Shown piece after piece: positions 20,374-33,343 of a stretch of 64,000 nt of DNA. Every line of letters begins with the position of its first letter. The stretch's first letter is position 1. A program made the translations under genes and the position numbers. The DNA is taken from IMG/VR virus record IMGVR_UViG_3300035491_000042, positions 1-64,000 of that record. One strand, 5' to 3'. The DNA comes from a virus (Duplodnaviria; Caudoviricetes). The notes under the pieces were generated by a model. It was not told where the DNA came from. It did not search any database and worked only from the letters and a program-made list of their open reading frames with translations.

Positions 20374-20844
20374 TTAATCCTCTTTTTTCAATTCTGCGAA
20401 ACTTTCACCGTACAGCTTGAGCTCTTTGCCGATCATTGGGTACAGAGCAGATTTGACAGTTTCAAACGCTTCAGGTGAGGCACCGTATGCGACAGAAACA
20501 TGGGCAAGGAACGGATCAAATGAATGATTCATGAAGAATGAAAGTTCTTCATGCCTTGCCTGTGCAGACGGTGCGTCGATGGTCAATACTATAGCACCTT
20601 TCCCTTCCTCGTCAACACCAAGCATTTGAATGTCTACAATCGTTCCCGTGTGGACGAGCTGAGGCTTCCCGAATACCTTTGCGTTCTCAATGGGGATAGG
20701 ATTCGATTTATCATACATGAGCGTCATGTGCATGTCATGAGGCTTAATGAGTGTAGCATCCATTGGGATATGTTTGATTTGAGCGTAGATAGCTCTTCCC
20801 ATTTCCAAGCCGACACGAAGTGAAACATACCCTAGTTTGATCAT
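20374..20844 (-). CDS. 2H phosphoesterase, Acb1/T4 gp57B-like anti-CBASS nuclease
   Basis: Two HxT/S motifs: HMTLMY and HSFDPFLAHVSVAY; 156 aa; TAAATA upstream. Confidence 0.8.
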   Translation of the reverse strand: MIKLGYVSLRVGLEMGRAIYAQIKHIPMDATLIKPHDMHMTLMYDKSNPIPIENAKVFGKPQLVHTGTIVDIQMLGVDEEGKGAIVLTIDAPSAQARHEELSFFMNHSFDPFLAHVSVAYGASPEAFETVKSALYPMIGKELKLYGESFAELKKED

Positions 20845-20866: not shown

Positions 20867-22657
20867 TTACAGTGGATATTCGTACTTTATCAAACCGCAA
20901 TCATAGATCGGGTATATCCCGTGTTCCAACATATTGGTCATTTCACTCTTAGTCGGATCGAAGTGTTCGAGTATCGTTTCAAGATTCTTCCTACGGAAGT
21001 TTTGCTTACGAACGCGTTTGTCATCAATCACGTACTGGTAATCCGGTTTGATATGCTTAGCCTCCACCCAACCAGACTTACGATACACATCACCCTCGCT
21101 GTAGCGTTTATCCGCGAACGATACAAGATTTGCACATCCAAGGTCTCTCAGGAACGGGATAGCGTGTTTCAAAAGACGCGTAAAGCCTCCTACAACGCGA
21201 CATGAGGTGGCGTATCTCGATAGCTCATACTCTGTGTCGGTTCTCTTCTTGAAGCTCATCATAGCTCGTATCTCACCAGCATAATACAGACACAGTGTCA
21301 GGCTTTGACCGCCATTTCCTTGAATGTGGTTCTTGTCGTAGAACGCTTTGATGGTTTCTTTCTCATCCTTGGTGATATTGATGAGTGTGCATTTTCTGGC
21401 GAATACGGTCTCTCTGTCGTCAACACCAAGGATCGATTTCAGTTTTGCCTTCACCTGTTCCTGTCGATGCTCCCATTCGTCCTCAAAGATATGAATCAGG
21501 CGCACTCCGACCTCCTTGGCGGCGTTGCTCTTCTCAAGATGGAAGTTGTTCTCCTTATACTTCTTTGAGTGCCAGTACAACCCGTTATACTCGATACCTA
21601 TCATTTTCGATGGGATAAGAATGTCAATCTCTCGGTTGTTTGGTAATGTGGTTCGATCCCCAGAGATCGCGTCATCAAAACCAAGGCTCTGAATGAACGC
21701 GAGTACTTGTTTTTCTGCGAACGACTTGTTCGTTGGTTCTACCTCAATGTTGAACTTTCGTAGCCGGTCGTAGATCACCCCATCACCGACGCCCAATAGG
21801 TTTCCTAAGCGAACACCACCAAGGAGGCGGTAATTCTCTTCCAGCCAGACTGGGTTGTCGAGAAGATCGAGATTTTCTTTTGAAATGTGTCGTTGCGAGT
21901 GATGAGGGACGCCGTATGTGTTTAAATTCTTCATCCGTATACGCTCTTTAAAGACGTCCGAGCAGCGATAGAACTCAGAGCCATAACGCTCCAAATTCGT
22001 CTTCTTGACCTTCCGAAAAACGACATCGTTCTGTATAGGGTTCTCTACCCCATAACGTTCAATGTTCGTGTTCTTAGCTTTCTCTTTCACATCATCGGAC
22101 TGCATTGGGTTCTCTACCCCATAACGCTCCAAATTCGTCTGTGTGATCTTTTTCTTAATATCTCCAGACGCAAACACATTATCAACACCATATGTTTTCC
22201 TAATAGATGCCTTATGCTTCCGACGCCCACTTTCTGTTTTCATTGGGTGGTCTGCGCCGTAACGAGAATTATTGGTTTTCTTGCGACGTTCCTTTACGTC
22301 GTCTCTCTGGGTGTTATATTCAACCCCATAAAGCTCAAGATTATTTTCCTTCTCCTTTTCGACAACAAATACACCGTTACATTTTCGAGAACAAGTCTTC
22401 GGAAATTCAGGGCCATGCGCTGTATGTATTTTATTCCCACACACAGGACACAGTGGTGGTTCTGTTATACCGTGTTTCAGTGCGAAGAGATACACAGAAA
22501 ACTCTTTTCGCCCGTCCATCGAATCGATGAAAGAAAACATACGTTTCACCGATTCTTTGAATTCTCGGTGTTCTTTCTTCTTGACCCATGCGGTGCTTGT
22601 ACCATCACCCATTGCGGTACGATAGTACTCTTGTAGTTGCTCGATACCCATATTCAT
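20867..22657 (-). mobile_element. Hef-like homing endonuclease
   Basis: Zn finger, YGVENPxQ repeats, EIDI..IGIEYNGLYWH PD-(D/E)xK nuclease, C-terminal GNAT-like domain. Confidence 0.75.
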
Positions 22658-26432: not shown

Positions 26433-27958
26433 CCTTGTTGATTTTGTTCTTGAGCCTGTAGGCCATATTTTTCAGCAACAGCAGGAGTTGGAGTGCCATA
26501 GACAATATTATCGATTTCTGTCTGTTCCATACCCTTAATAACGTCATCACTAATACCAAGCTCACGAAGACGTTCTTCCTCGTTGTGGTGTAGCTCGTCC
26601 TGCGTCAAACCAAGATACTTCTGAAGAGAAAACTTCTTAGACAGCACATTGATCTGTAGTGTGCTGTTATAAACGTTTAGTTGGGTTTGGTTCAGCTCCA
26701 TCTCTTTGTACTGAGAGAACGACATTGGTTCATTGATGCGAAGTTCAAGGTCTTCTGGGATGACGATATCTCTGTCGATACAGAACTCTTTAAAATTCTC
26801 GAACAACGTCGCAGCAAAACGTCGCTGAAACCGTTTTACGTACCCCATATAACGCATCTCGATCTGATACAGTTGACCAACACGCATGTCGTTATACTGA
26901 CTTCTTTCTTGGTCGCCTTGTGTGTCGATCATCGAATGAGGGATGCGCAGACCAGCAGCAAGCTTGCGACTGAACCACTCAAGGTCAGCAGTCTCACCAA
27001 GGTTCTGTCCACCCGGTAGTGTCTCAATGCGAGAACCTTTACCGGTGCTATTGGTCGGGATGAAGATGTCTTCACTGGTCGAGTGTGGGTCATATTCAGT
27101 CGTCAGTTCCTTGTTCTTCACCGCGTTCTTCTGCATCAGTCGCATGCGTTGCTTCTCAATAGCAGCTTCGCGCTTCGGTCCTTGTAGGTTACCGGTGTCG
27201 ATGTAGTAAACACGACGCTCGGGGGCGCGAACAACGCGATAGATGATGACTGCGTCCTCGATCAGACTCATCTGTCTCCAAGTACGATATACCGGCTCGA
27301 TGATAGACATACCAAATGGTTCATTATTTGTCTTTAGAACAATCAAGTCACTCACTGGGATAATTTCGATGTCATTGACACTGACCGCGTTCATGCGCTG
27401 ACGCTCTTGCTGACTCAAAGTGCCGGATGACTTGATCAGTCGCCCTTCTTTGTTATACAAGTAATGAGTGACGACTTGGTCATCTTCATTAGAGAGGATA
27501 TAGCCAATCATCCGTTCGGTTTTTAACTCCTTACAAGAACCATCTGGTTGTTTCCTGTAAAAAGTCGCCCCATATTTCAACGTCTTACGAACGCGCTCGA
27601 ATAAATCCACATCCATTCTGGTACGTGCGCCCCATGTGCGAATTGCTTCCGAGATGAAACGCATCAGAGTCTTCTTTGTTTTTGTCTCATCTGGGTACAC
27701 ATCAAGGAAAACATAATCATCGTCAGCATTGGACGATGAGATATCCTCAGCCAGAACATCAAGAGCGCGAGAAATTTCTACAGAAGTAGTGTCGGCATCA
27801 TCATAGCGTTGCAGGCGGTTGAAACGAGAACCGCTGTTGTCAATGTAGTTGTTATACCAGCTACTTGAGACTGCATGCGAGCTCATTGCGTAACCGCCAT
27901 TACTCTTTGAACCCAGACGAACTGTGTTCCATACGGATTCTTTTACTTGTACACTCAT
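26426..27958 (-). CDS. portal protein (gp20-like)
   Basis: EDAVIIYRVVRAPERRVYYIDTGNL, EDIFIP, IETLPGGQNLG. Confidence 0.95.
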   Translation of the reverse strand: MSVQVKESVWNTVRLGSKSNGGYAMSSHAVSSSWYNNYIDNSGSRFNRLQRYDDADTTSVEISRALDVLAEDISSSNADDDYVFLDVYPDETKTKKTLMRFISEAIRTWGARTRMDVDLFERVRKTLKYGATFYRKQPDGSCKELKTERMIGYILSNEDDQVVTHYLYNKEGRLIKSSGTLSQQERQRMNAVSVNDIEIIPVSDLIVLKTNNEPFGMSIIEPVYRTWRQMSLIEDAVIIYRVVRAPERRVYYIDTGNLQGPKREAAIEKQRMRLMQKNAVKNKELTTEYDPHSTSEDIFIPTNSTGKGSRIETLPGGQNLGETADLEWFSRKLAAGLRIPHSMIDTQGDQERSQYNDMRVGQLYQIEMRYMGYVKRFQRRFAATLFENFKEFCIDRDIVIPEDLELRINEPMSFSQYKEMELNQTQLNVYNSTLQINVLSKKFSLQKYLGLTQDELHHNEEERLRELGISDDVIKGMEQTEIDNIVYGTPTPAVAEKYGLQAQEQNQQGW

Positions 27959-28017
27959 GTGAGTATTCCTTTGTGATAAATATAGATCATTACACCACTA
28001 TTTATGGGACATAAGAC

Positions 28018-28542
28018 ATGCCAATGATTACGCAATCTATCAACAAAGACTACCTAGACATGTACGATGGTTACGACCAACAAGAAGTTGGTCTTGGTGT
28101 GGTGCAGCCAAATATTTATGCAACGCCAGCATACAAGAAGAAAAAAATAAAAAGTCTGATTCTTGGTGGTATTTCAGAAATTCAGTATGCTGGTATGGAG
28201 CATGACAGAAACCCTCTCATCCTGACCATGGCGTATGAAGGCCCATATAGCACGGTTATCGGGTACAACTTACACTACTGTCCACCAAAACTAAGATCAG
28301 CTATTCTCAAATTCGTACTAGACTCGAACGTTGCGAGAATCAAGGCGAACCAACCAATAATCGTGGACTACCATGCATTGAAGAGAGCAATCCCAGATAG
28401 TCAGTATCTTGTTCGACGATACAAAGTTGTTGGCATCAACGTCCTTGAGACATACCGACTCTCTGATTGGCCCGAAGCGGTCAAAGACCGCTCCAAGTGG
28501 GAGGGGCACTATAAGATGATCAAGGAAGGAAAGGTTCGTTAA
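28018..28542 (+). CDS. DNA end protector (gp2-like)
   Basis: DRNPLI...GYNLHYCPPKLR...RRY; ATAAATA upstream. Confidence 0.7.
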   Translation: MPMITQSINKDYLDMYDGYDQQEVGLGVVQPNIYATPAYKKKKIKSLILGGISEIQYAGMEHDRNPLILTMAYEGPYSTVIGYNLHYCPPKLRSAILKFVLDSNVARIKANQPIIVDYHALKRAIPDSQYLVRRYKVVGINVLETYRLSDWPEAVKDRSKWEGHYKMIKEGKVR

Positions 28543-30590
28543 TCTTCCTCTGGAACCATCCCATCCAAAACAAAATTCAGACCACTCTCTGTGACGTACG
28601 AAGTAAATTCTTCGTCTAGGACAACAGTATCACGCAAGTATTCTGTCAACCTAGCTGCAAGGTAGTCCAAATCAAGATCAGCGTCTTCGATATCACTAGA
28701 GATAACAAACGCGATACTTGGTTCGTCGCTGATCAGTTTGTGACTGTTTCGATACTCATCACATGTGTCATAGAACAACCGCTCAAGTGACTCACTCTCA
28801 CCAACAACCATTAGAACACGAGAGACCCCATCACTAATCGATTCAACGATAGCCAGTTCGAGCTCACCCATGTAATAGGTCTTCAGTTCTACAGACTTAT
28901 CTCGGTTTGCTACCAGCCCGTCGATGATACAAACTTCCACAAACATGTTCTCACGAAGAGGGACGTTCGGGATTTTGTGGTCGGTGCAGAAATTTACAAT
29001 GGTGTCGTGGGTTGCTTTCGACACCCGAATACCCTTCAGAGTAATACTGCTCATAGAAACGTTCTCCTTTTGTAACGTCTCTTTATTTACCCGCGCCTCT
29101 TTGCGTTCTTTTACGTATTCAGCGTCGATGATGCGGTAAATATTGGTCATGTAGAAGTCGTCGTCACGTCGACCGTTTGAACAGTCACATTCACCGACAA
29201 CAGCTATCGAGCTACACTCGACCATCGCCTTCTTCGCCCGGTTTACGGCAGATGGAGGCACACCAGACCATGCACTGGCAAAACGGTCTGCAAACACTGT
29301 TTCGCCGTTATAATCTTTGTAAAGCTGCTTAATGGCATCAAGCAGTATCAAGCTTTTGAGAACTTTCTTTACCCCATCATAACCTTTTGGGAGCGGCATA
29401 ACAGGCTTCTTCATGAGATGCGACACGTCTAACATACCAGCGTCAACCATCATACGCAGGAACCATACCACGAACTCCGGTGGTCGGAGACGAGGAGCTT
29501 GACACCCATAACGCATTGTTGCGTACAGACGCACGATGTTATAGTCGACCTGCTCCAATGGATCACCAAAGTGGTTGGAGAAGTCACGGATGATCATATG
29601 TGTGCCGTTGCTGTGCCAGCGAACGCCCATAGATGGTCGACGGTCGATATGGGATGGGATAACAGAGCGCTGTGACGTTTTCTCTCCCGGTGCTGGTACG
29701 CGAAGCCCAAGAAACTTCCCCAGAGCGGTTTGAATCTCTCGGTTATGGAACAGCTCGCAAACCAGCTTGCTATCCAGTGTACCGGGCTCAATAGTGAGCT
29801 TACCATCAACCAGAAACTCGCGCTGTGGAGCATACTCGATGTCCTCAGCAGGCTTGTACATATCCGGGGTTTGTGGTAGGTACATCGTCGATTCTTCGTA
29901 GTTGATGCCCTTACGGTCGTTCATCTGTGCAACCAGTGCGTTGATAACTTCCTCATCCTTCATGTCAAGAACCGGTTTTTCCTTCTTCGTTTTAATCTTT
30001 TTCGGCTTCGATGGCTTCTTAGAGGCAGCACTAGCCTCACGCTTCATCTCAAGAGCAAGCTGGGTGGCAGAAGCCATCTCGACAGCGAGCAATTCCATAT
30101 CCAGTTTTGGTAGCTGGTCAAGATCAAAGATCGCTTCCCATGGCTCATCACTCTCGGCAACATACGTTTTCTGGTCAGGAAGGATCACATACCCGCCGTC
30201 ACCGAGGATATCGATGTTCGGCAGGAAGTTAATGCGACGGTTCACGCCTTCGGTTTTGCTGAAGTATATGTGGTAGCCATTCGACATGGTCTTTACAACC
30301 ATGGCTTTCAAATCTTCACAGAGCTCAAACACCCGATCCATCGCGTTTTCAGTCAGAATCTTGCTGGCGGGACAGGCTTTACCAATGTCGATATCAACCA
30401 CGGTGAATTGATCGTTAGAAGCACCCACCAGAGCGTCTGGGAACCTGCCCCATAGGCGTTTGATGACCTTCTTGTCGGTTGTACCGTCATAGAAGCCCTT
30501 CTTCGTCAGAGGGCTCTTGGTTGCGCGATGACACGGGAAAACACTGATACCTCGCTCAGCATACTTCAGGGCGATGGATAATTGATTCAA
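28539..30590 (-). CDS. bifunctional primase/polymerase (Prim-Pol) domain protein with degenerate 2H-like C-terminus
   Basis: VFPC...P...GF..GTTD, VVDID, TMSNGYHIYF, IDILGDGGYVILP. Confidence 0.75.
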   Translation of the reverse strand: MNQLSIALKYAERGISVFPCHRATKSPLTKKGFYDGTTDKKVIKRLWGRFPDALVGASNDQFTVVDIDIGKACPASKILTENAMDRVFELCEDLKAMVVKTMSNGYHIYFSKTEGVNRRINFLPNIDILGDGGYVILPDQKTYVAESDEPWEAIFDLDQLPKLDMELLAVEMASATQLALEMKREASAASKKPSKPKKIKTKKEKPVLDMKDEEVINALVAQMNDRKGINYEESTMYLPQTPDMYKPAEDIEYAPQREFLVDGKLTIEPGTLDSKLVCELFHNREIQTALGKFLGLRVPAPGEKTSQRSVIPSHIDRRPSMGVRWHSNGTHMIIRDFSNHFGDPLEQVDYNIVRLYATMRYGCQAPRLRPPEFVVWFLRMMVDAGMLDVSHLMKKPVMPLPKGYDGVKKVLKSLILLDAIKQLYKDYNGETVFADRFASAWSGVPPSAVNRAKKAMVECSSIAVVGECDCSNGRRDDDFYMTNIYRIIDAEYVKERKEARVNKETLQKENVSMSSITLKGIRVSKATHDTIVNFCTDHKIPNVPLRENMFVEVCIIDGLVANRDKSVELKTYYMGELELAIVESISDGVSRVLMVVGESESLERLFYDTCDEYRNSHKLISDEPSIAFVISSDIEDADLDLDYLAARLTEYLRDTVVLDEEFTSYVTESGLNFVLDGMVPEED

Positions 30591-30593
30591 AGC

Positions 30594-31082
30594 TTACTCC
30601 TTTTTAGCAGGCCCATAATAGGCGATGAAGTAAGCATCCGTCAAGTCGAAACGACCCTTTGTTTTGGGGTACTCGCCAAAAATACCCTGAATGTGTTCTG
30701 GTAGTGCGTCGAACATCATTTCTTTTTTCGCGTTCCCGTTTTTGGTGGCGATCTTCTTCAGCCACTTCGGGTTTACAAGGTTGACAGACACCTCTGGGAG
30801 GTCAAAAAGAAATGTGCGAAGGATGATGGCGAAAAGGCCAGCAAGGTCTTTTGCAGCGTCTCCGGTAGCAGCGTATGCCAGTTCTTCAATGTATACCTCA
30901 TCCGCTTTGTATTCACGGGCGATGGATACCAGAGCGTCTGCGATAGATTGCATCTTTACAACCTTCTCTCGGAAGCCCTTCACTGGTGGGAGACGAACAA
31001 GTTCGTGGTGGATCATGACGCCGTCGTCCATGACAACGACGCCTGATGATGAAATAGACTGGTCGATACCGATTGTGATCAT
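30594..31082 (-). CDS. RuvC-like Holliday junction resolvase
   Basis: IGIDQS..SSG, IEE, KK.ATKNGNAKK, DLTDAY; start refined to MITIG. Confidence 0.85.
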   Translation of the reverse strand: MITIGIDQSISSSGVVVMDDGVMIHHELVRLPPVKGFREKVVKMQSIADALVSIAREYKADEVYIEELAYAATGDAAKDLAGLFAIILRTFLFDLPEVSVNLVNPKWLKKIATKNGNAKKEMMFDALPEHIQGIFGEYPKTKGRFDLTDAYFIAYYGPAKKE

Positions 31083-31126
31083 TTGATTTTTCCCTTTCCC
31101 AGTATTTAGGGAAAGGGAAAACTTTA

Positions 31127-33343
31127 TCACTGGATAGTTGAGAAGCCGTTTTTCTTCACGACCGTCAACGACTCTGTTGTGGCGTCTGACAGGTCATCCC
31201 GGTGGGTGATCAGGAAAACGTTATCAGCACACGAAACAATGAACTTCGTTGCTGCTCGGATACCTGACTTGTCCAATGCACTGTCCAAAAACTCGTCCAC
31301 AAGGGCAATATTACAGCCTTTGCCCAGCAGGGAGATCGTGTCACGGAACGCCATAGTCACCGCGATGTTCAGACGCAGACGCTCACCACGAGACATCAGA
31401 TGATACGAAACGTCACGGTTCATATACATGATCGACACAGTCAGGTCACTGTTCAGTTCACACACGTGAGGCAAACCAAGACTCTGGGTGTAGTGGTTAA
31501 TCTGCTTGTTGATGAACGGAACGTAGTTGTCAAGTATACGGCGACGAACAAAGCTCTTACTGTCCGTGAGCAGCTTCACGAGGTATCCAAGGTGCGTATC
31601 AATCTTCTCACATTCGGAAAACTCTACCTGCTTCATACTTAACTCATTCTCTACCTCATTCGCGGCTTCCTCAGCAGCCAGCATCATCTCGGTGTGGGGG
31701 TTCTGCTCGGACTCTACGCGCTTGAGATTCTCTTTGCACTGGTCAACCCTCATCTTGTCGGCAAGCAGATCATACTGGTTGGCATACCCACAAAGGTCTA
31801 TACGCTCGGCGTCAGCTCTGAGTTCATCCAGCGTTTCGGTCGCGTCAGCAACCTCACGCTGCAATAGCTTAACAACATTAGACAGTTCATCAAGAGGATC
31901 ATTCTCATTGAGTTCTTCCAGCTCTGATCTGGCTTCATTGATCATCGTAGTGTATGGATTTGAGGCTACCTTGGCAGTTAGAACCTCGATCATCGCATTA
32001 CATTTGTTCAGTAAGCGAATCTTAGACTCACACTCGGCTACGGTGCCATCGAACGGAACCTCAATATCCCGAGGCGAATCATTCAAAAAGTCCTCACAAT
32101 CGTTGATCTCGTCATCAATATCCACGATCTTGTTTCGATCTTTCTCGATTTCCGATTTCAGCGTTGATAGATGCTGCTCGTCTTTGTATGGACCACCACA
32201 CACATGACACGTCCCGTTCTCGTGTGCCTCAATCTGAGCCTCACGCTCTTTGATACGTTCAACCAAACGCTGGCGGGTTTTCTGTTTTTCGTTCAGAATA
32301 CTCGTTTGACGTGCTCGCTCGTCGTTGTGCTGAATAGCTTCAATGCACATGTGGTATTCTTCTTCAGACCGATAGGTCTTCTGTTCAGCAAGGCGCTCGT
32401 CGAGCTCTAGTTGTGTCTCAGCGCCATGCGTTTTCTCGCTTAGAAGAAGTTTATCAATCTTCGAACGAAGTAATGTGTGCTTCTGCAACTTGTTTTGTTT
32501 TACGGTGAGTTCAGCATTTGCCTCGTCGCGACGGGTTTCGACTTCCTTGATCTGCTGGAGTATCTCATCACGCTGCTTGAAAGCCGCTTCAACCTCATCA
32601 AAATTGATGCTATTGAGACGCTCCAAATCTTTCTTCAATTTCTCAATTCGGACGGTCTTCTCACTATCAAAGTCAGCGACAGCAGACAAATGGCGGTTCA
32701 CTTGACGGAATGCTTTGTCACACGCATCGTTGAGGATATCCATCTCACGTCTCAGTGTCTTCATCTCAGCCTTGTTCTCGCTGGTGAACTTCTTTGCTAC
32801 CTCATAGCGAGCCGCAAGCACATCCAGACAGAGTAGTTGCTCAACAACAGTACGTTGCTCTGGACCACTCATCTCGAAGAAAGTCCGCTTTGTTGGGCTC
32901 ATAAAATGTGTGAGCATGAAGACGTCGTAAGACATACCAACGAACTCAACGATGGCTTCATCGGTGTTCTTCATGCTGTCTCGGGTCATACTGACACCGT
33001 CGACTTCAAACTCAAGCAAACTTGGCTTGCGTCCGCGACGAACGATGGCAGTGCTGGCACCTCGCTTCATGTGTACTTCGGTGAGAAGCTTCTTGCCATT
33101 CGAAAGATTGACCAGCTCATCAGCGCGAACCTTGTCGATACCTTCACCGTACAAACAGAAGATGAGCGCATTGAACGCTGCTGTCTTACCAACACCATTA
33201 GCACTCTCGTTTGTGTCACCAATATCTTGGTTCTCACCACGAATCAGTGTCAGTGGGCTCTTATCCAGTTGAACCCACTGCATTTTATTGCCAAACGACT
33301 GGAAGTTTGCGAAACCTACAGTCGTAAAAATCGTTTTTTGCAT
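31127..33343 (-). CDS. Rad50/SbcC-like ATPase (gp46)
   Basis: NGVGKT, CHVC zinc hook, MSRGE signature, VDE, ITH. Confidence 0.93.
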   Translation of the reverse strand: MQKTIFTTVGFANFQSFGNKMQWVQLDKSPLTLIRGENQDIGDTNESANGVGKTAAFNALIFCLYGEGIDKVRADELVNLSNGKKLLTEVHMKRGASTAIVRRGRKPSLLEFEVDGVSMTRDSMKNTDEAIVEFVGMSYDVFMLTHFMSPTKRTFFEMSGPEQRTVVEQLLCLDVLAARYEVAKKFTSENKAEMKTLRREMDILNDACDKAFRQVNRHLSAVADFDSEKTVRIEKLKKDLERLNSINFDEVEAAFKQRDEILQQIKEVETRRDEANAELTVKQNKLQKHTLLRSKIDKLLLSEKTHGAETQLELDERLAEQKTYRSEEEYHMCIEAIQHNDERARQTSILNEKQKTRQRLVERIKEREAQIEAHENGTCHVCGGPYKDEQHLSTLKSEIEKDRNKIVDIDDEINDCEDFLNDSPRDIEVPFDGTVAECESKIRLLNKCNAMIEVLTAKVASNPYTTMINEARSELEELNENDPLDELSNVVKLLQREVADATETLDELRADAERIDLCGYANQYDLLADKMRVDQCKENLKRVESEQNPHTEMMLAAEEAANEVENELSMKQVEFSECEKIDTHLGYLVKLLTDSKSFVRRRILDNYVPFINKQINHYTQSLGLPHVCELNSDLTVSIMYMNRDVSYHLMSRGERLRLNIAVTMAFRDTISLLGKGCNIALVDEFLDSALDKSGIRAATKFIVSCADNVFLITHRDDLSDATTESLTVVKKNGFSTIQ

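What the first reader, a model, noticed from the sequence alone, without database searches (positions are those of the whole stretch)
28539..29089. Nested in-frame gene: degenerate Acb1-like 2H domain at the end of the Prim-Pol gene with its own late promoter and RBS
Seen: inside the 683-aa ORF there is a TAAATA late motif (29084-29089), a strong AAGGAG RBS and an in-frame ATG (29054), giving a 171-aa product. That segment resembles T4 gp57B/Acb1 as recalled (KIPNVPLRENMFVEVC vs RVPNPVPREKIHSTIC; VVGESESL vs VLDSEYL; VVLDEEF vs VVLDREY) but lacks both HxT motifs. Inference: a catalytically dead cyclic-nucleotide-binding domain made both fused to a primase/polymerase and free at late times. It could be a sponge or a sensor linking immune signals to replication, alongside an intact Acb1 elsewhere in the window.
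Basis: partly seen in the sequence, partly recalled or inferred. Interest (0 to 1): 0.78.

Follow-up and report, generated by a model that had tools for sequence, protein, structure and literature searches.

The report
Dead Acb1-like domain nested in primase gene
The last 171 codons of this phage's primase-polymerase gene encode a catalytically dead, very acidic copy of the anti-CBASS enzyme Acb1, and a conserved internal late promoter, ribosome-binding site and ATG probably also make it as a free protein late in infection.

Summary
ORF 28539-30590 (-) encodes 683 aa. TAAATA (29089-29084), AAGGAG (29069-29064) and an in-frame ATG (29054) precede its last 171 codons.

Fold claim: supported. The AlphaFold2 model (pLDDT 94) matches Acb1 and other 2H phosphoesterases. 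The domain profile aligns with true Acb1 proteins (hhalign 99.3%). Both HxT motifs are replaced (F38/E40, A115/V117). The alignable base-stacking aromatics are gone and the C-terminal lid differs. Net charge is -21.

Nested gene: supported by sequence only.
- TAAATA is this phage's promoter core: 32 of 77 copies precede SD+ATG.
- Of 813 deep in-frame ATGs in the genome, only this one has TAAATA 15-45 nt upstream.
- Against a 75%-identical relative, the longest identical run (40 nt; next 20) spans exactly TAAATA to ATGAG.
- Relatives carry the domain as a split adjacent gene or a standalone gene, each with TAAATA, SD and ATG.

A complex model docks the domain on a conserved basic helix of the primase body (ipSAE 0.74, best control 0.01).

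The sponge or sensor idea is not supported. No RNA or protein data exist. I rate it a new variant of a known kind.

The parts
28539..30590 (-). Full-length ORF of 683 aa: Prim-Pol domain, a roughly 270-aa middle region (helix-turn-helix-like at about 385-496), a variable charged linker, and the dead 2H domain. TTG start preceded by AAGGAG; it directly follows the RuvC-like gene.
   Evidence: 35 full-length homologues aligned
30147..30572 (-). Prim-Pol (archaeo-eukaryotic primase type) catalytic domain, residues 7-146. It is the only primase-type domain found in the complete genome.
   Evidence: PF09250 E 7e-19 and 4.8e-21; no DnaG Zn-ribbon, Toprim_2 or Toprim_4 match
28539..29054 (-). Nested in-frame ORF of 171 aa plus stop: Acb1-derived 2H-fold pseudoenzyme domain, net charge -21.
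29084..29089 (-). TAAATA, the core of this phage's late-type promoter motif, 29 nt upstream of the internal ATG.
29064..29069 (-). AAGGAG Shine-Dalgarno, 9 nt before the ATG. It is read in frame as Lys-Glu.
29052..29054 (-). Internal in-frame ATG (Met513 of the long protein), 3 codons before strand beta-1 of the domain.
29050..29089 (-). 40-nt block identical in the 75%-identical relative L016. It is the longest identical run in 1149 aligned nt and runs exactly from TAAATA to ATGAG.
29055..29082 (-). Predicted RNA hairpin: 9-bp stem (arms 29082-29074 and 29063-29055) with the SD in the loop and the 3' arm abutting the AUG. A late transcript would be expected to start inside the 5' arm.
   Evidence: dG -8.7 kcal/mol, z -3.8, 0 of 200 shuffles as stable. 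The start-site position is inferred from recalled T4 late-promoter geometry.
28935..28943 (-). Codons F38-V39-E40 of the nested product, in place of the first HxT motif of Acb1.
   Evidence: hhalign columns
28704..28712 (-). Codons A115-F116-V117 of the nested product, in place of the second HxT motif. The following S119 and D121 are retained, as in Acb1 (TLSYD).
29217..29258 (-). Residues 445-458 (PPSAVNRAKKAMVE) of the primase body: a conserved basic helix predicted to sit in the old cleft of the 2H domain.
20374..20844 (-). Context: the phage's intact Acb1-type paralogue of 156 aa with invariant H39 and H115. It has its own TAAATA 19 nt upstream of the ATG.

Best explanation
SHOWN BY COMPUTATION.
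- Residues 513-683 of the phage's only primase (a Prim-Pol enzyme) form a separate, confidently folded 2H-phosphoesterase domain.
- The domain is homologous to the anti-CBASS nuclease Acb1 but has lost the HxT/HxT tetrad: H to F38, T to E40, H to A115, T to V117.
- The three stacking aromatics that can be aligned are also lost, and the domain has become strongly acidic.
- It is therefore a pseudoenzyme derived from Acb1.

INFERRED, STRONGLY. The same 171 codons are also a nested gene.
- A late-type promoter core (TAAATA), AAGGAG and ATG sit in the interdomain linker with the geometry of the phage's other late genes.
- This block is held constant at synonymous sites in the nearest relative.
- Relatives encode the same module as a split, translationally coupled gene or as a standalone gene, with the same promoter, SD and ATG layout.
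- So the cell should hold a little fused protein, made from a TTG start on operon transcripts. It should also hold free 19-kDa protein at late times, probably far more of it.
- A hairpin that places the spacer up to the AUG in a stem may keep internal initiation low on read-through transcripts. Late transcripts that begin inside its 5' arm would escape it, as in T4 gene e and gene 49 (recalled).

INFERRED, MODERATELY. The domain works by binding protein, not nucleotides.
- Its former substrate cleft is predicted to clamp a conserved basic helix (NRAKK) of the helix-turn-helix-like part of the primase body.
- In cis or in split form it would be a primase subunit.
- The free late copy would then bind the same kind of basic surface in trans, on the primase or on another DNA-binding protein. 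My preferred guess is that it damps or redirects priming when the phage turns to recombination-dependent replication and packaging.

The confidence given is for the composite of pseudoenzyme, nested late gene and a protein-binding role. The parts are rated separately in the full report.
For: Fold:
- AlphaFold2 model of the domain with 34 sequences: pLDDT 94.2, pTM 0.88.
- Foldseek against PDB: top hits are the phage BCSR5 phosphodiesterase (E 1e-6) and Acb1 of phage FBB1 (7t26, E 1e-5, TM 0.61/0.74), then other 2H enzymes.
- Foldseek against BFVD: top hits are named Acb1 (E 1.2e-8, TM 0.65-0.78).

Homology:
- The domain profile finds 174 proteins at E <= 1e-3 among 1.84 billion. They include standalone proteins of 150-205 aa with two HxT motifs about 73-78 residues apart.
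- 40 of these aligned (A3) hit Acb1 7t26 at E 9e-36.
- A2 against A3 by hhalign: probability 99.3%, E 2e-20.

Loss of function:
- Invariant columns in the domain are only D25, Y139 and G165. There is no conserved His, Lys or Arg.
- The Acb1 tetrad and stacking residues were taken from passages of PMC9117128.
- Net charge is -21; the median of 34 domains is -22.5, against -8 for 40 active relatives.

Nested gene:
- Promoter and internal-ATG census of the genome.
- 40-nt identical run from TAAATA to ATGAG where 54% of codons with the same amino acid differ synonymously; the next longest run is 20 nt.
- TAAATA is the only sense-strand copy in the ORF and lies within 110 nt upstream of strand beta-1 in 6 of 13 distinct fused DNA sequences, which is 4 of 11 lineages.
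- 12 of 50 fused proteins carry the in-frame footprint [LIV]-N-[KNRSTIM] 8-16 residues before a Met at the boundary, against about 1.8 expected. These include 10 of the 11 closest-clade proteins.

Separability:
- L007: primase body of 586 aa, then a 169-aa gene overlapping it as ATGA, with AAGGAG and with TAAATA 45 nt upstream.
- L011/L024: the domain is in a separate frame.
- L012/L013: a standalone 173-aa gene at the same syntenic place (SbcD, SbcC, RuvC-like, 577-nt gap, then the gene..., gp2-like, portal). It has its own TAAATA, AAGGA and ATG. No primase part is found in the 60.7-kb and 43.4-kb fragments.
- Standalone forms lie on contigs of up to 38.6 kb.

Docking: ipSAE 0.74, 0.74 and 0.78; best of 3 controls 0.01. 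That mark was reached by 58 of 80 solved complexes and 2 of 110 mismatched pairs (the tool notes that these counts hold only roughly with my own alignments). Runs agree in at least 84% of contacts, and partner pLDDT is at least 86.

Hairpin.

Sole primase.
Against: - There is no transcript, ribosome or protein evidence. No RNA run holds the stretch.
- The preceding bases are GG, not the TA of T4's TATAAATA. The phage's other sites do vary there (A, C or G).
- AAGGAG is encoded by a Lys-Glu pair in a Lys/Glu-rich linker, where SD-like strings arise easily.
- In 7 of 13 fused DNA sequences no TAAATA lies within 130 nt of the boundary. In several (L008, L004, L018, L006) there is no SD+ATG either. 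So the nested start is not a family-wide feature.
- The frequent Met 8 residues before beta-1 alternates with V, I or L, and where DNA is available the Val is GTA. That Met is therefore at least partly structural.
- Synonymous conservation rests on one relative.
- The hairpin was chosen after the fact. The 131-nt region as a whole is not unusually stable (z -0.74).
- The docking is a model of two halves of one natural polypeptide.
- Its interface residues are not more conserved than the rest. Mann-Whitney p is 0.95 and 0.92, in a test that includes buried core residues.
- The standalone gene in phages whose fragments show no primase argues that primase docking cannot be the whole function.
- The late trans-inhibition role is a guess.
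Confidence: 0.55

Rival explanations
1. The domain works only in cis as the C-terminal domain of the primase. The internal TAAATA, AAGGAG and ATG are not used for a separate protein. They are either chance products of a Lys/Asn/Glu-rich linker, or a promoter that merely feeds transcription onward towards the portal gene.
For: - The SD is an in-frame Lys-Glu in a charged linker.
- 7 of 13 fused DNA sequences lack TAAATA near the boundary.
- The portal gene lies further down the same strand.
- No expression data exist.
Against: - This is the only one of 813 deep in-frame ATGs with TAAATA 15-45 nt upstream, and it also has a 6-nt SD, which only 15 of 813 have.
- The 40-nt identical run is bounded by TAAATA and ATGAG.
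- Split and standalone genes show the same layout.
- The portal has its own TAAATA 40 nt from its ATG.
- A transcript from 29078 would first have to cross the convergent gp2-like gene in antisense.
Confidence: 0.17
2. One reading: the dead domain still binds cyclic oligonucleotide immune signals. It acts as a non-degrading sponge when free, or as a sensor that couples immune signalling to replication when fused.
For: - It descends from Acb1 and keeps the U-shaped beta-sheet architecture.
- The phage invests in anti-signalling, with an intact Acb1.
- Phage sponges for such signals are a known strategy, according to the abstracts listed for Acb4 and Panoptes.
- A highly expressed late free protein suits a stoichiometric binder.
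Against: - The three aligned stacking positions (Y12, W74, F107 of Acb1) are L/other, V/E and P in this family. The C-terminal lid that carries W147 and E141 differs.
- No conserved basic residue or His is left to hold phosphates.
- Net charge is -21.
- The cleft is predicted to be filled by a protein helix.
Confidence: 0.1
3. The free late protein is an acidic DNA-mimic-like anti-defence or virion protein. It would target a host DNA-binding enzyme (a nuclease or restriction-type defence). It could be packaged and delivered with the DNA. The fusion to the primase would be secondary.
For: - Very acidic, with a median pI of about 4.2.
- Late-type promoter.
- The standalone gene persists without a neighbouring primase, between recombination-nuclease genes and the gp2-like end protector and portal.
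- An Acb1-like domain is fused to the portal of cyanophage Pam3 (8hds residues 482-611, E 2e-9).
Against: - No target is known.
- The fold is not that of any known DNA mimic.
- The fused form is the commonest architecture: 50 proteins of 550 aa or more carry the domain.
- The only interaction with computational support is with the primase body.
Confidence: 0.12
4. The domain is still an enzyme that uses other residues, for example a phosphoesterase acting on primer ends.
For: S119 and D121 after the second motif, and the N-terminal NF..D..I.N.P motif, are shared with Acb1.
Against: Both catalytic His and both Thr are replaced in all 34 aligned domains. No alternative conserved His, Lys or Arg exists.
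Confidence: 0.03

Closest known systems
Acb1 (T4 gp57B family; structures 7t26/7t27 of phage FBB1; phage BCSR5 9q2g/9q2y)
   Same: - Compact 2H phosphoesterase fold.
- Profile-level homology.
- Shared motifs: NF..D..IPN before the first catalytic strand, and S.D after the second.
- Similar size, about 150-170 aa.
- Phage-encoded and under a late-type promoter, like the phage's own intact copy.
   Different: - The HxT/HxT tetrad is replaced by F.E and A.V.
- The three alignable stacking aromatics are absent, and the lid region differs.
- Net charge is about -22, against about -8.
- The C-terminal tail is a conserved LDG..PE.E motif instead of the Trp-bearing lid.
- It is usually fused to a primase.
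- No nuclease activity is expected.
Non-catalytic 2H-fold domains (AKAP18 central domain; kinetoplastid mitoribosomal small-subunit proteins)
   Same: They appear among the fold matches (2vfk, 3j4q, 6hiw, 7aor). They are precedents for a 2H fold reused for binding or scaffolding.
   Different: - The matches are far more distant (E 1e-3 to 3e-2).
- They are cellular, not phage proteins.
- That AKAP18 keeps its His motifs and binds AMP is recalled, not tested here.
In-frame nested genes of replication and mobilisation proteins (T7 gene 4A/4B; RSF1010 MobA/RepB'; phiX174 A/A*; Tn5 transposase/Inh). All are recalled; no call covers them.
   Same: One reading frame gives a long protein and a shorter C-terminal one from an internal RBS and start. 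The short form can work alone or modulate the long one.
   Different: Here the short product is not the catalytic or oligomerising part. It is an exapted anti-defence-enzyme fold, and it appears to have its own promoter and not only an internal RBS.
T4 nested or late-promoter-in-hairpin control (gene 49 endonuclease VII, gene e lysozyme, I-TevI). Recalled.
   Same: A late promoter lies inside or just before a hairpin that masks a translation start on longer early transcripts. Late transcripts begin within the hairpin and are translated.
   Different: - In the window the SD lies in the loop and only the spacer is paired.
- The structure is predicted only.
- It has no covariation support.
Phage and plasmid Prim-Pol primases with a helper domain (pRN1 ORF904 type, D5-like primase-helicases). 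Recalled, apart from the Pfam/PHROG names.
   Same: N-terminal PF09250 catalytic domain followed by accessory domains.
   Different: There is no helicase domain. The C-terminal partner is a dead Acb1. No paper in the searched library joins 'Prim-Pol' with '2H phosphoesterase'.

Membership tests
2H phosphoesterase superfamily (fold) | Two-lobed alpha+beta fold with a central cleft formed by antiparallel beta-sheets | tested here: met
   Model pLDDT 94.2. Every named PDB hit down to E about 1e-2 is a 2H-type protein, apart from two kinetoplastid mitoribosomal small-subunit proteins (ranks 10, 11 and 15). 36 viral models at E <= 1e-3, led by Acb1.
2H phosphoesterase superfamily (enzymes) | Two H-x-T/S motifs on the cleft strands | tested here: not met
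   F38-V-E40 and A115-F-V117 occupy these columns. No His is conserved in 34 domains.
Acb1 (anti-CBASS nuclease) | Sequence homology to characterised Acb1 | tested here: met
   A2 against A3 by hhalign 99.3%, E 2e-20. A3 against 7t26 E 9e-36. The A2 profile alone finds no PDB chain by sequence; its best hit has E 0.17.
Acb1 (anti-CBASS nuclease) | Catalytic tetrad H44/T46/H113/T115 (passages of PMC9117128) | tested here: not met
Acb1 (anti-CBASS nuclease) | Base-stacking aromatics Y12, W74, F107 and W147; E141; a C-terminal lid | tested here: not met
   The aligned columns are non-aromatic (L6, V70/E71, P112). The profile alignment ends before the lid. The tail is an acidic LDG..PE.E motif. 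The mapping is by profile alignment, not by superposed coordinates.
Acb1 (anti-CBASS nuclease) | Cleaves 3'3'-cGAMP, cUA or cAAA and protects phage from CBASS | not testable with these tools
   This is a biochemical and genetic property. It is predicted absent because the tetrad is lost.
Nested in-frame gene | Internal in-frame start codon with an RBS at a domain boundary | tested here: met
   ATG 29054, 3 codons before beta-1. AAGGAG with a 9-nt spacer. An SD of 6 nt or more occurs at only 15 of 813 internal ATGs.
Nested in-frame gene | Own promoter upstream of the internal start | tested here: inconclusive
   The motif and its geometry match the phage's other late-type sites, are unique among internal ATGs, and are conserved at synonymous sites. 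No transcript 5' end could be observed.
Nested in-frame gene | The shorter polypeptide is actually made | not testable with these tools
   No RNA run was listed. There are no proteomic data.
Prim-Pol primase (PF09250) | N-terminal AEP catalytic domain above the Pfam gathering score | tested here: met
   69.2 bits against a cut-off of 22.8. Invariant D66, D68 and H107 in 35 sequences.

The most novel reading that the evidence does not exclude
An anti-CBASS nuclease gene was duplicated, lost its chemistry and became a very acidic protein-binding module. Its old substrate cleft now grips the basic, probably DNA-binding, helix of the phage's only primase. By transcribing and translating just this module from an internal late promoter, the phage floods the cell late with a trans-acting, DNA-mimic-like clamp. 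That clamp switches priming off or retargets it, giving a replication-to-packaging switch. In lineages where it stands alone, it may attack a host DNA-binding defence protein. This would be an immune-evasion enzyme fold recruited into replisome control, with dual expression from one frame.
Probability: 0.2. Interest if true: 0.8.

Novelty: new variant of a known kind. Interest (0 to 1): 0.62.

Why it matters
Acb1 is known as a small free enzyme that destroys CBASS signals. Here a whole family shows the same fold stripped of its catalytic residues and of the stacking residues that can be aligned. At least 50 fused representatives of 550 aa or more were found, plus dozens of short free forms, among 1.84 billion proteins. 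The domain is attached to, split from, or freed from a phage primase.

This matters in three ways.
- It warns against annotating such domains as anti-CBASS nucleases from fold or profile hits alone.
- It gives a clean natural series (fused, nested, split, standalone) for studying how a defence-evasion enzyme is exapted as a pseudoenzyme.
- The nested late gene is a directly testable case of one reading frame giving two products under different temporal control in a T4-like phage whose only primase is a Prim-Pol.

If the free form regulates priming or blocks a host protein, it would be a new class of phage regulator or anti-defence protein.

Tried and rejected
- Single-sequence search for short relatives of the 171-aa product: 70 candidates, none at E <= 0.01. 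The profile search later found many, so that blank was a sensitivity limit.
- The search for related loci with the domain alignment failed because no stretch was conserved enough. Single standalone proteins P0061, P0058, P0073 and fused P0010 found nothing in viral contigs. A1 found nothing in genome contigs.
- As a result, DNA of the closest clade (P0004-P0014) could not be obtained. Its TAAATA, SD and ATG are inferred from the protein footprint only.
- Megablast of 20 kb of the window against GenBank phages: no match.
- No RNA holder was listed for window 27000-32000.
- Contigs of four DNA runs were laid. One contig spans the stretch with 51 differences, and none of its 40 listed differences lies between 28807 and 29138. 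A further 67 differences (all four runs together) were not shown, and divergence is too low to test the 40-nt block.
- Predicted complex: see Best explanation. The conservation test of its interface gave no support.
- Whole-region RNA folding is not unusual (z -0.74). Only the local hairpin stands out.
- The sigma-70 and terminator scan gave fewer sites than shuffles. One TTGACG-18-TATTAT site lies at 30644-30615, before the primase start.
- Pfam and PHROGs give nothing for the domain. CPV_RdRP_C at E 0.013/0.056 and phrog_13375 at E 0.097 are below any threshold and were rejected.
- Literature: no paper holds both 'BCSR5' and 'phosphodiesterase' or both 'Prim-Pol' and '2H phosphoesterase'. 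The Acb1/primase/inactive/fusion search listed nothing relevant among the 10 papers shown of 702.
- Only passages of PMC9117128 were read. Its Extended Data alignment figure and supplements were not seen and could refine the residue mapping.
- The idea that the frequent Met 8 residues before beta-1 marks a universal internal start was rejected. That position alternates with V, I or L, and the Val is GTA in L004.
- The identity of the middle region (about 262-492) was not settled. The only lead is an Atlas match to helix-turn-helix or DnaD-like models at TM 0.27-0.57.

Full report
WHAT IS THERE

On the minus strand, ORF 28539..30590 encodes 683 aa. It begins at a TTG, 6 nt after an AAGGAG, and directly follows the RuvC-like gene. 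Homologues begin at the same column with Met. Pfam sees only a Prim-Pol domain at residues 7-146 (E 7e-19). PHROGs agrees.

Gene order on this strand is: late sigma factor (gp55-like), SbcD, SbcC, RuvC-like resolvase, this gene. A gp2-like DNA end protector converges on it, and the portal gene follows.

The window is part of a complete virus record of 152,211 nt with direct terminal repeats. That record has one Prim-Pol and one DnaB-type helicase. It has no DnaG Zn-ribbon, Toprim_2 or Toprim_4 match. This protein is therefore probably the phage's only primase.

The nearest named phages are Alishewanella phages Slicko01 and Slickus01, at 37% identity over the full length.

THE OBSERVATION

THE DOMAIN

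35 full-length homologues (32-54% identity) all carry the C-terminal segment after a variable, gapped, charged linker. An AlphaFold2 model of the 171 residues, built with 34 aligned domains, is confident: pLDDT 94.2 and pTM 0.88.

Fold matches:
- Foldseek against the PDB gives the phage BCSR5 phosphodiesterase (E 1e-6) and Acb1 of phage FBB1 (E 1e-5; TM 0.61 by query, 0.74 by target). Next come 2'-5' RNA-ligase-like proteins, Usb1, CPDase, LigT, ASCC1 and AKAP18.
- Against viral models the top hits are named Acb1 (E 1.2e-8, TM 0.65-0.78).

The link is also visible in sequence:
- A profile of the domain found 174 proteins at E <= 1e-3 among 1.84 billion representatives.
- The weaker hits are free proteins of 150-205 aa with two HxT motifs about 73-78 residues apart.
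- Forty of them, with the window's own 156-aa protein at 20374-20844, form alignment A3, in which H39 and H115 are invariant.
- A3 matches Acb1 7t26 at E 9e-36 and the BCSR5 protein, deposited as 'Anti-CBASS protein Acb1', at E 4e-17.
- The profile-profile comparison of the dead domain with A3 gives probability 99.3% and E 2e-20.

In that alignment the catalytic H-x-T of Acb1 faces F38-V-E40 and A115-F-V117. The Acb1 paper gives the tetrad as H44/T46/H113/T115. It gives the base-stacking residues as Y12, W74, F107 and W147, with E141 and a C-terminal lid (passages read). The three stacking columns that align are L6, V70/E71 and P112 here. The profile alignment stops before the lid, and the tail is a conserved acidic LDG..PE.E motif.

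The only invariant columns of the family are D25, Y139 and G165. No His, Lys or Arg is among the 30 most conserved positions. The domain is strikingly acidic: net charge -21, with a median of -22.5 over 34 domains and -23.5 over 30 free forms. The 40 active relatives have a median of -8, and the primase body is +3.

It is therefore an Acb1-derived pseudoenzyme. It fails the defining catalytic test for Acb1 membership, and nucleotide binding of the Acb1 kind is unlikely.

IS IT ALSO A GENE OF ITS OWN?

Five lines of evidence bear on this.

(a) The promoter motif is real in this phage.
- TAAATA is the most enriched hexamer in intergenic DNA: 31 of 77 copies in 11.2 kb, against 3.5 expected.
- 32 of 77 copies are followed at 15-45 nt by SD+ATG opening at least 50 codons. 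The 14 other arrangements of the same six letters give 1-14 copies.
- The base before the motif varies (A, C or G), so GGTAAATA is not aberrant here.
- The sites include the intact acb1, the portal, the RuvC-like gene and many structural genes.
- The phage has a gp55-like sigma factor. This fits T4-type late promoters, whose consensus and geometry I recall and did not test.

(b) The site is unique. Among 813 in-frame ATGs deep inside 190 ORFs, only this one has TAAATA 15-45 nt upstream. Only 15 of the 813 have an SD of 6 nt or more.

(c) There is nucleotide-level constraint. Metagenome contig L016 encodes a relative that is 75% identical over residues 302-683, and 149 of 274 codons with the same amino acid differ synonymously. 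The longest run of identical nucleotides is 40 nt, at 29089..29050, from the first T of TAAATA to two bases past the ATG. The next longest run is 20 nt.

(d) The layout recurs in other lineages.
- Among 13 distinct fused DNA sequences (11 lineages), 6 (4 lineages) have their only sense-strand TAAATA within 110 nt upstream of strand beta-1. These are the window and L016 (29 nt before SD+ATG), the L010/L021 group (41 nt before GGAG-ATG), Alishewanella phage (20 nt before an in-frame ATG with a weak SD) and L001 (80 nt before GAGGAG-ATG).
- The other 7 have none within 130 nt, and several lack any SD+ATG.
- At the protein level, 12 of 50 fused representatives show the in-frame footprint of the motif ([LIV]-N-[KNRSTIM]) 8-16 residues before a boundary Met, against about 1.8 expected. 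They include 10 of the 11 members of the window's clade, mostly with a K-E pair (the AAGGAG reading) 3-6 residues before the Met. I could not get their DNA.

(e) The domain is separable.
- In L007 the primase body ends at 586 aa. A 169-aa gene for the domain overlaps its stop as ATGA, with AAGGAG and with TAAATA 45 nt upstream.
- In L011/L024 the domain lies in another frame as a separate ORF.
- In L012/L013 a 173-aa gene (183 aa stop to stop) sits at the same syntenic place, after SbcD, SbcC, the RuvC-like gene and a 577-nt gap without ORFs. It comes before the gp2-like and portal genes, and it has TAAATA, AAGGA and ATG.
- No primase part is detectable in those 60.7-kb and 43.4-kb fragments, which are 39% and 24% complete.
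- Free forms occur on contigs of up to 38.6 kb and in clusters of up to 10 members from separate assemblies.
- Some of the roughly 50 short representatives may still be internal-start calls on broken contigs. P0054, for example, matches the boundary residues of fused P0032 as far as they were printed.

I put the probability that the nested product is made in this phage at about 0.75. It is not a universal feature of the family.

A POSSIBLE TRANSLATIONAL GATE

The 40-nt block folds into a 9-bp hairpin (29082-29074 with 29063-29055). The SD is in its loop and the 3' arm ends at the AUG. Its dG is -8.7 kcal/mol, z is -3.8, and 0 of 200 shuffles fold as well.

If late transcripts start about 6 nt after the motif, as I recall for T4, they would begin inside the 5' arm and could not form the full stem (second fold). 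This is the logic recalled for T4 genes e and 49. I confirmed only that gene's TAAATA and its 20-nt spacing.

The hairpin was picked after the fact. It has no covariation support, and the wider 131-nt region is unremarkable (z -0.74).

WHAT DOES IT DO?

The complex model of residues 1-500 with the domain passes clearly.
- ipSAE is 0.74, 0.74 and 0.78, and the best of three controls is 0.01.
- That mark was reached by 58 of 80 solved complexes and 2 of 110 mismatched pairs. The tool notes that these counts hold only roughly with my own alignments.
- The runs share at least 84% of contacts, and partner pLDDT is at least 86.

The best-defined contacts join body residues 445-455 with the central strands and the region of the lost second motif (68-71, 82-84, 113, 115). 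Residues 445-455 lie in the conserved PPSAVNRAKKAMVE helix, within a stretch that resembles helix-turn-helix models (a lead only). So the old substrate cleft appears to hold a basic helix.

Cautions:
- These are two halves of one natural chain.
- The interface is not more conserved than the rest of either partner.
- A model is not a measurement.

With the extreme acidity, this favours a protein-binding, possibly DNA-mimicking, role over nucleotide binding. The TTG start of the long form and the AAGGAG-ATG of the short form suggest that the free form would be in excess late. The standalone genes show that the module has a function that does not need a covalent primase. Whether that function is modulation of priming or action on another DNA-binding protein is open.

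COMPARISON WITH KNOWN SYSTEMS, AND NOVELTY

The fold and ancestry are Acb1. The expression logic resembles known in-frame nested genes and T4 late-promoter gating, both recalled. The combination is not in the searched literature. That combination is an Acb1-derived, tetrad-less, highly acidic module that is fused to, nested in, split from or free of a phage Prim-Pol. Pfam and PHROGs have no model for it. I class it as a new variant of a known kind.

VERDICT

- Observation: confirmed.
- Fold and pseudoenzyme status: about 0.95.
- Nested late gene in this phage: about 0.75.
- Protein-docking mechanism: about 0.5.
- Sponge or sensor: about 0.1.
- Interest: 0.62.

Noticed in passing
PDB 8hds chain A residues 482-611 (not in the window): The profile of active Acb1-like proteins (A3) matches the C-terminal 130 residues of the cyanophage Pam3 portal protein at E 2e-9. 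A 1134-aa 'Acb1' model also appears among the viral fold hits. Acb1-type domains are thus fused to other phage proteins too, including a virion protein.
   Followed up: no
window 31083-31108 (-): The RuvC-like gene is listed from a GTG at 31130. A TAAATA at 31108-31103 is followed 20 nt later by an ATG (MITIGIDQS...) that opens 162 codons. This is probably the true start, with a late-type promoter inside the end of the SbcC gene.
   Followed up: partly
window 28539-28542: The primase gene (-) and the gp2-like DNA end protector gene (+, 28018-28542) converge and overlap by 4 nt at their stop codons. No terminator-like site lies between them. Each is approached by a TAAATA-type site, so late transcription here would be convergent.
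   Followed up: no
whole genome G000 (152,211 nt): Full TATAAATA occurs only 7 times, whereas the shorter TAAATA marks about 32 gene starts. The base before it is A, C or G. This phage's late-type promoter core therefore seems shorter than T4's.
   Followed up: partly
window 20867-22657 (-): A 596-aa ORF next to the intact acb1 matches homing or HNH endonuclease PHROGs very strongly (E 6e-121, three stretches). This is unusually large for a homing endonuclease and was not examined.
   Followed up: no
L013 4424-5001: In the phage with the standalone dead-Acb1 gene, a 577-nt stretch without any ORF of 40 aa or more lies where relatives have the primase body. It could be a deletion scar, a regulatory region or an RNA gene.
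   Followed up: no
L011 4001-7241: The primase homologue is called as 1006 aa (P0048). Its last 200 or so residues are low-complexity and overlap, out of frame, a 263-aa ORF that holds the dead-Acb1 domain behind an acidic extension of about 85 aa. It could be a frameshifted gene, a programmed shift or two genes.
   Followed up: no
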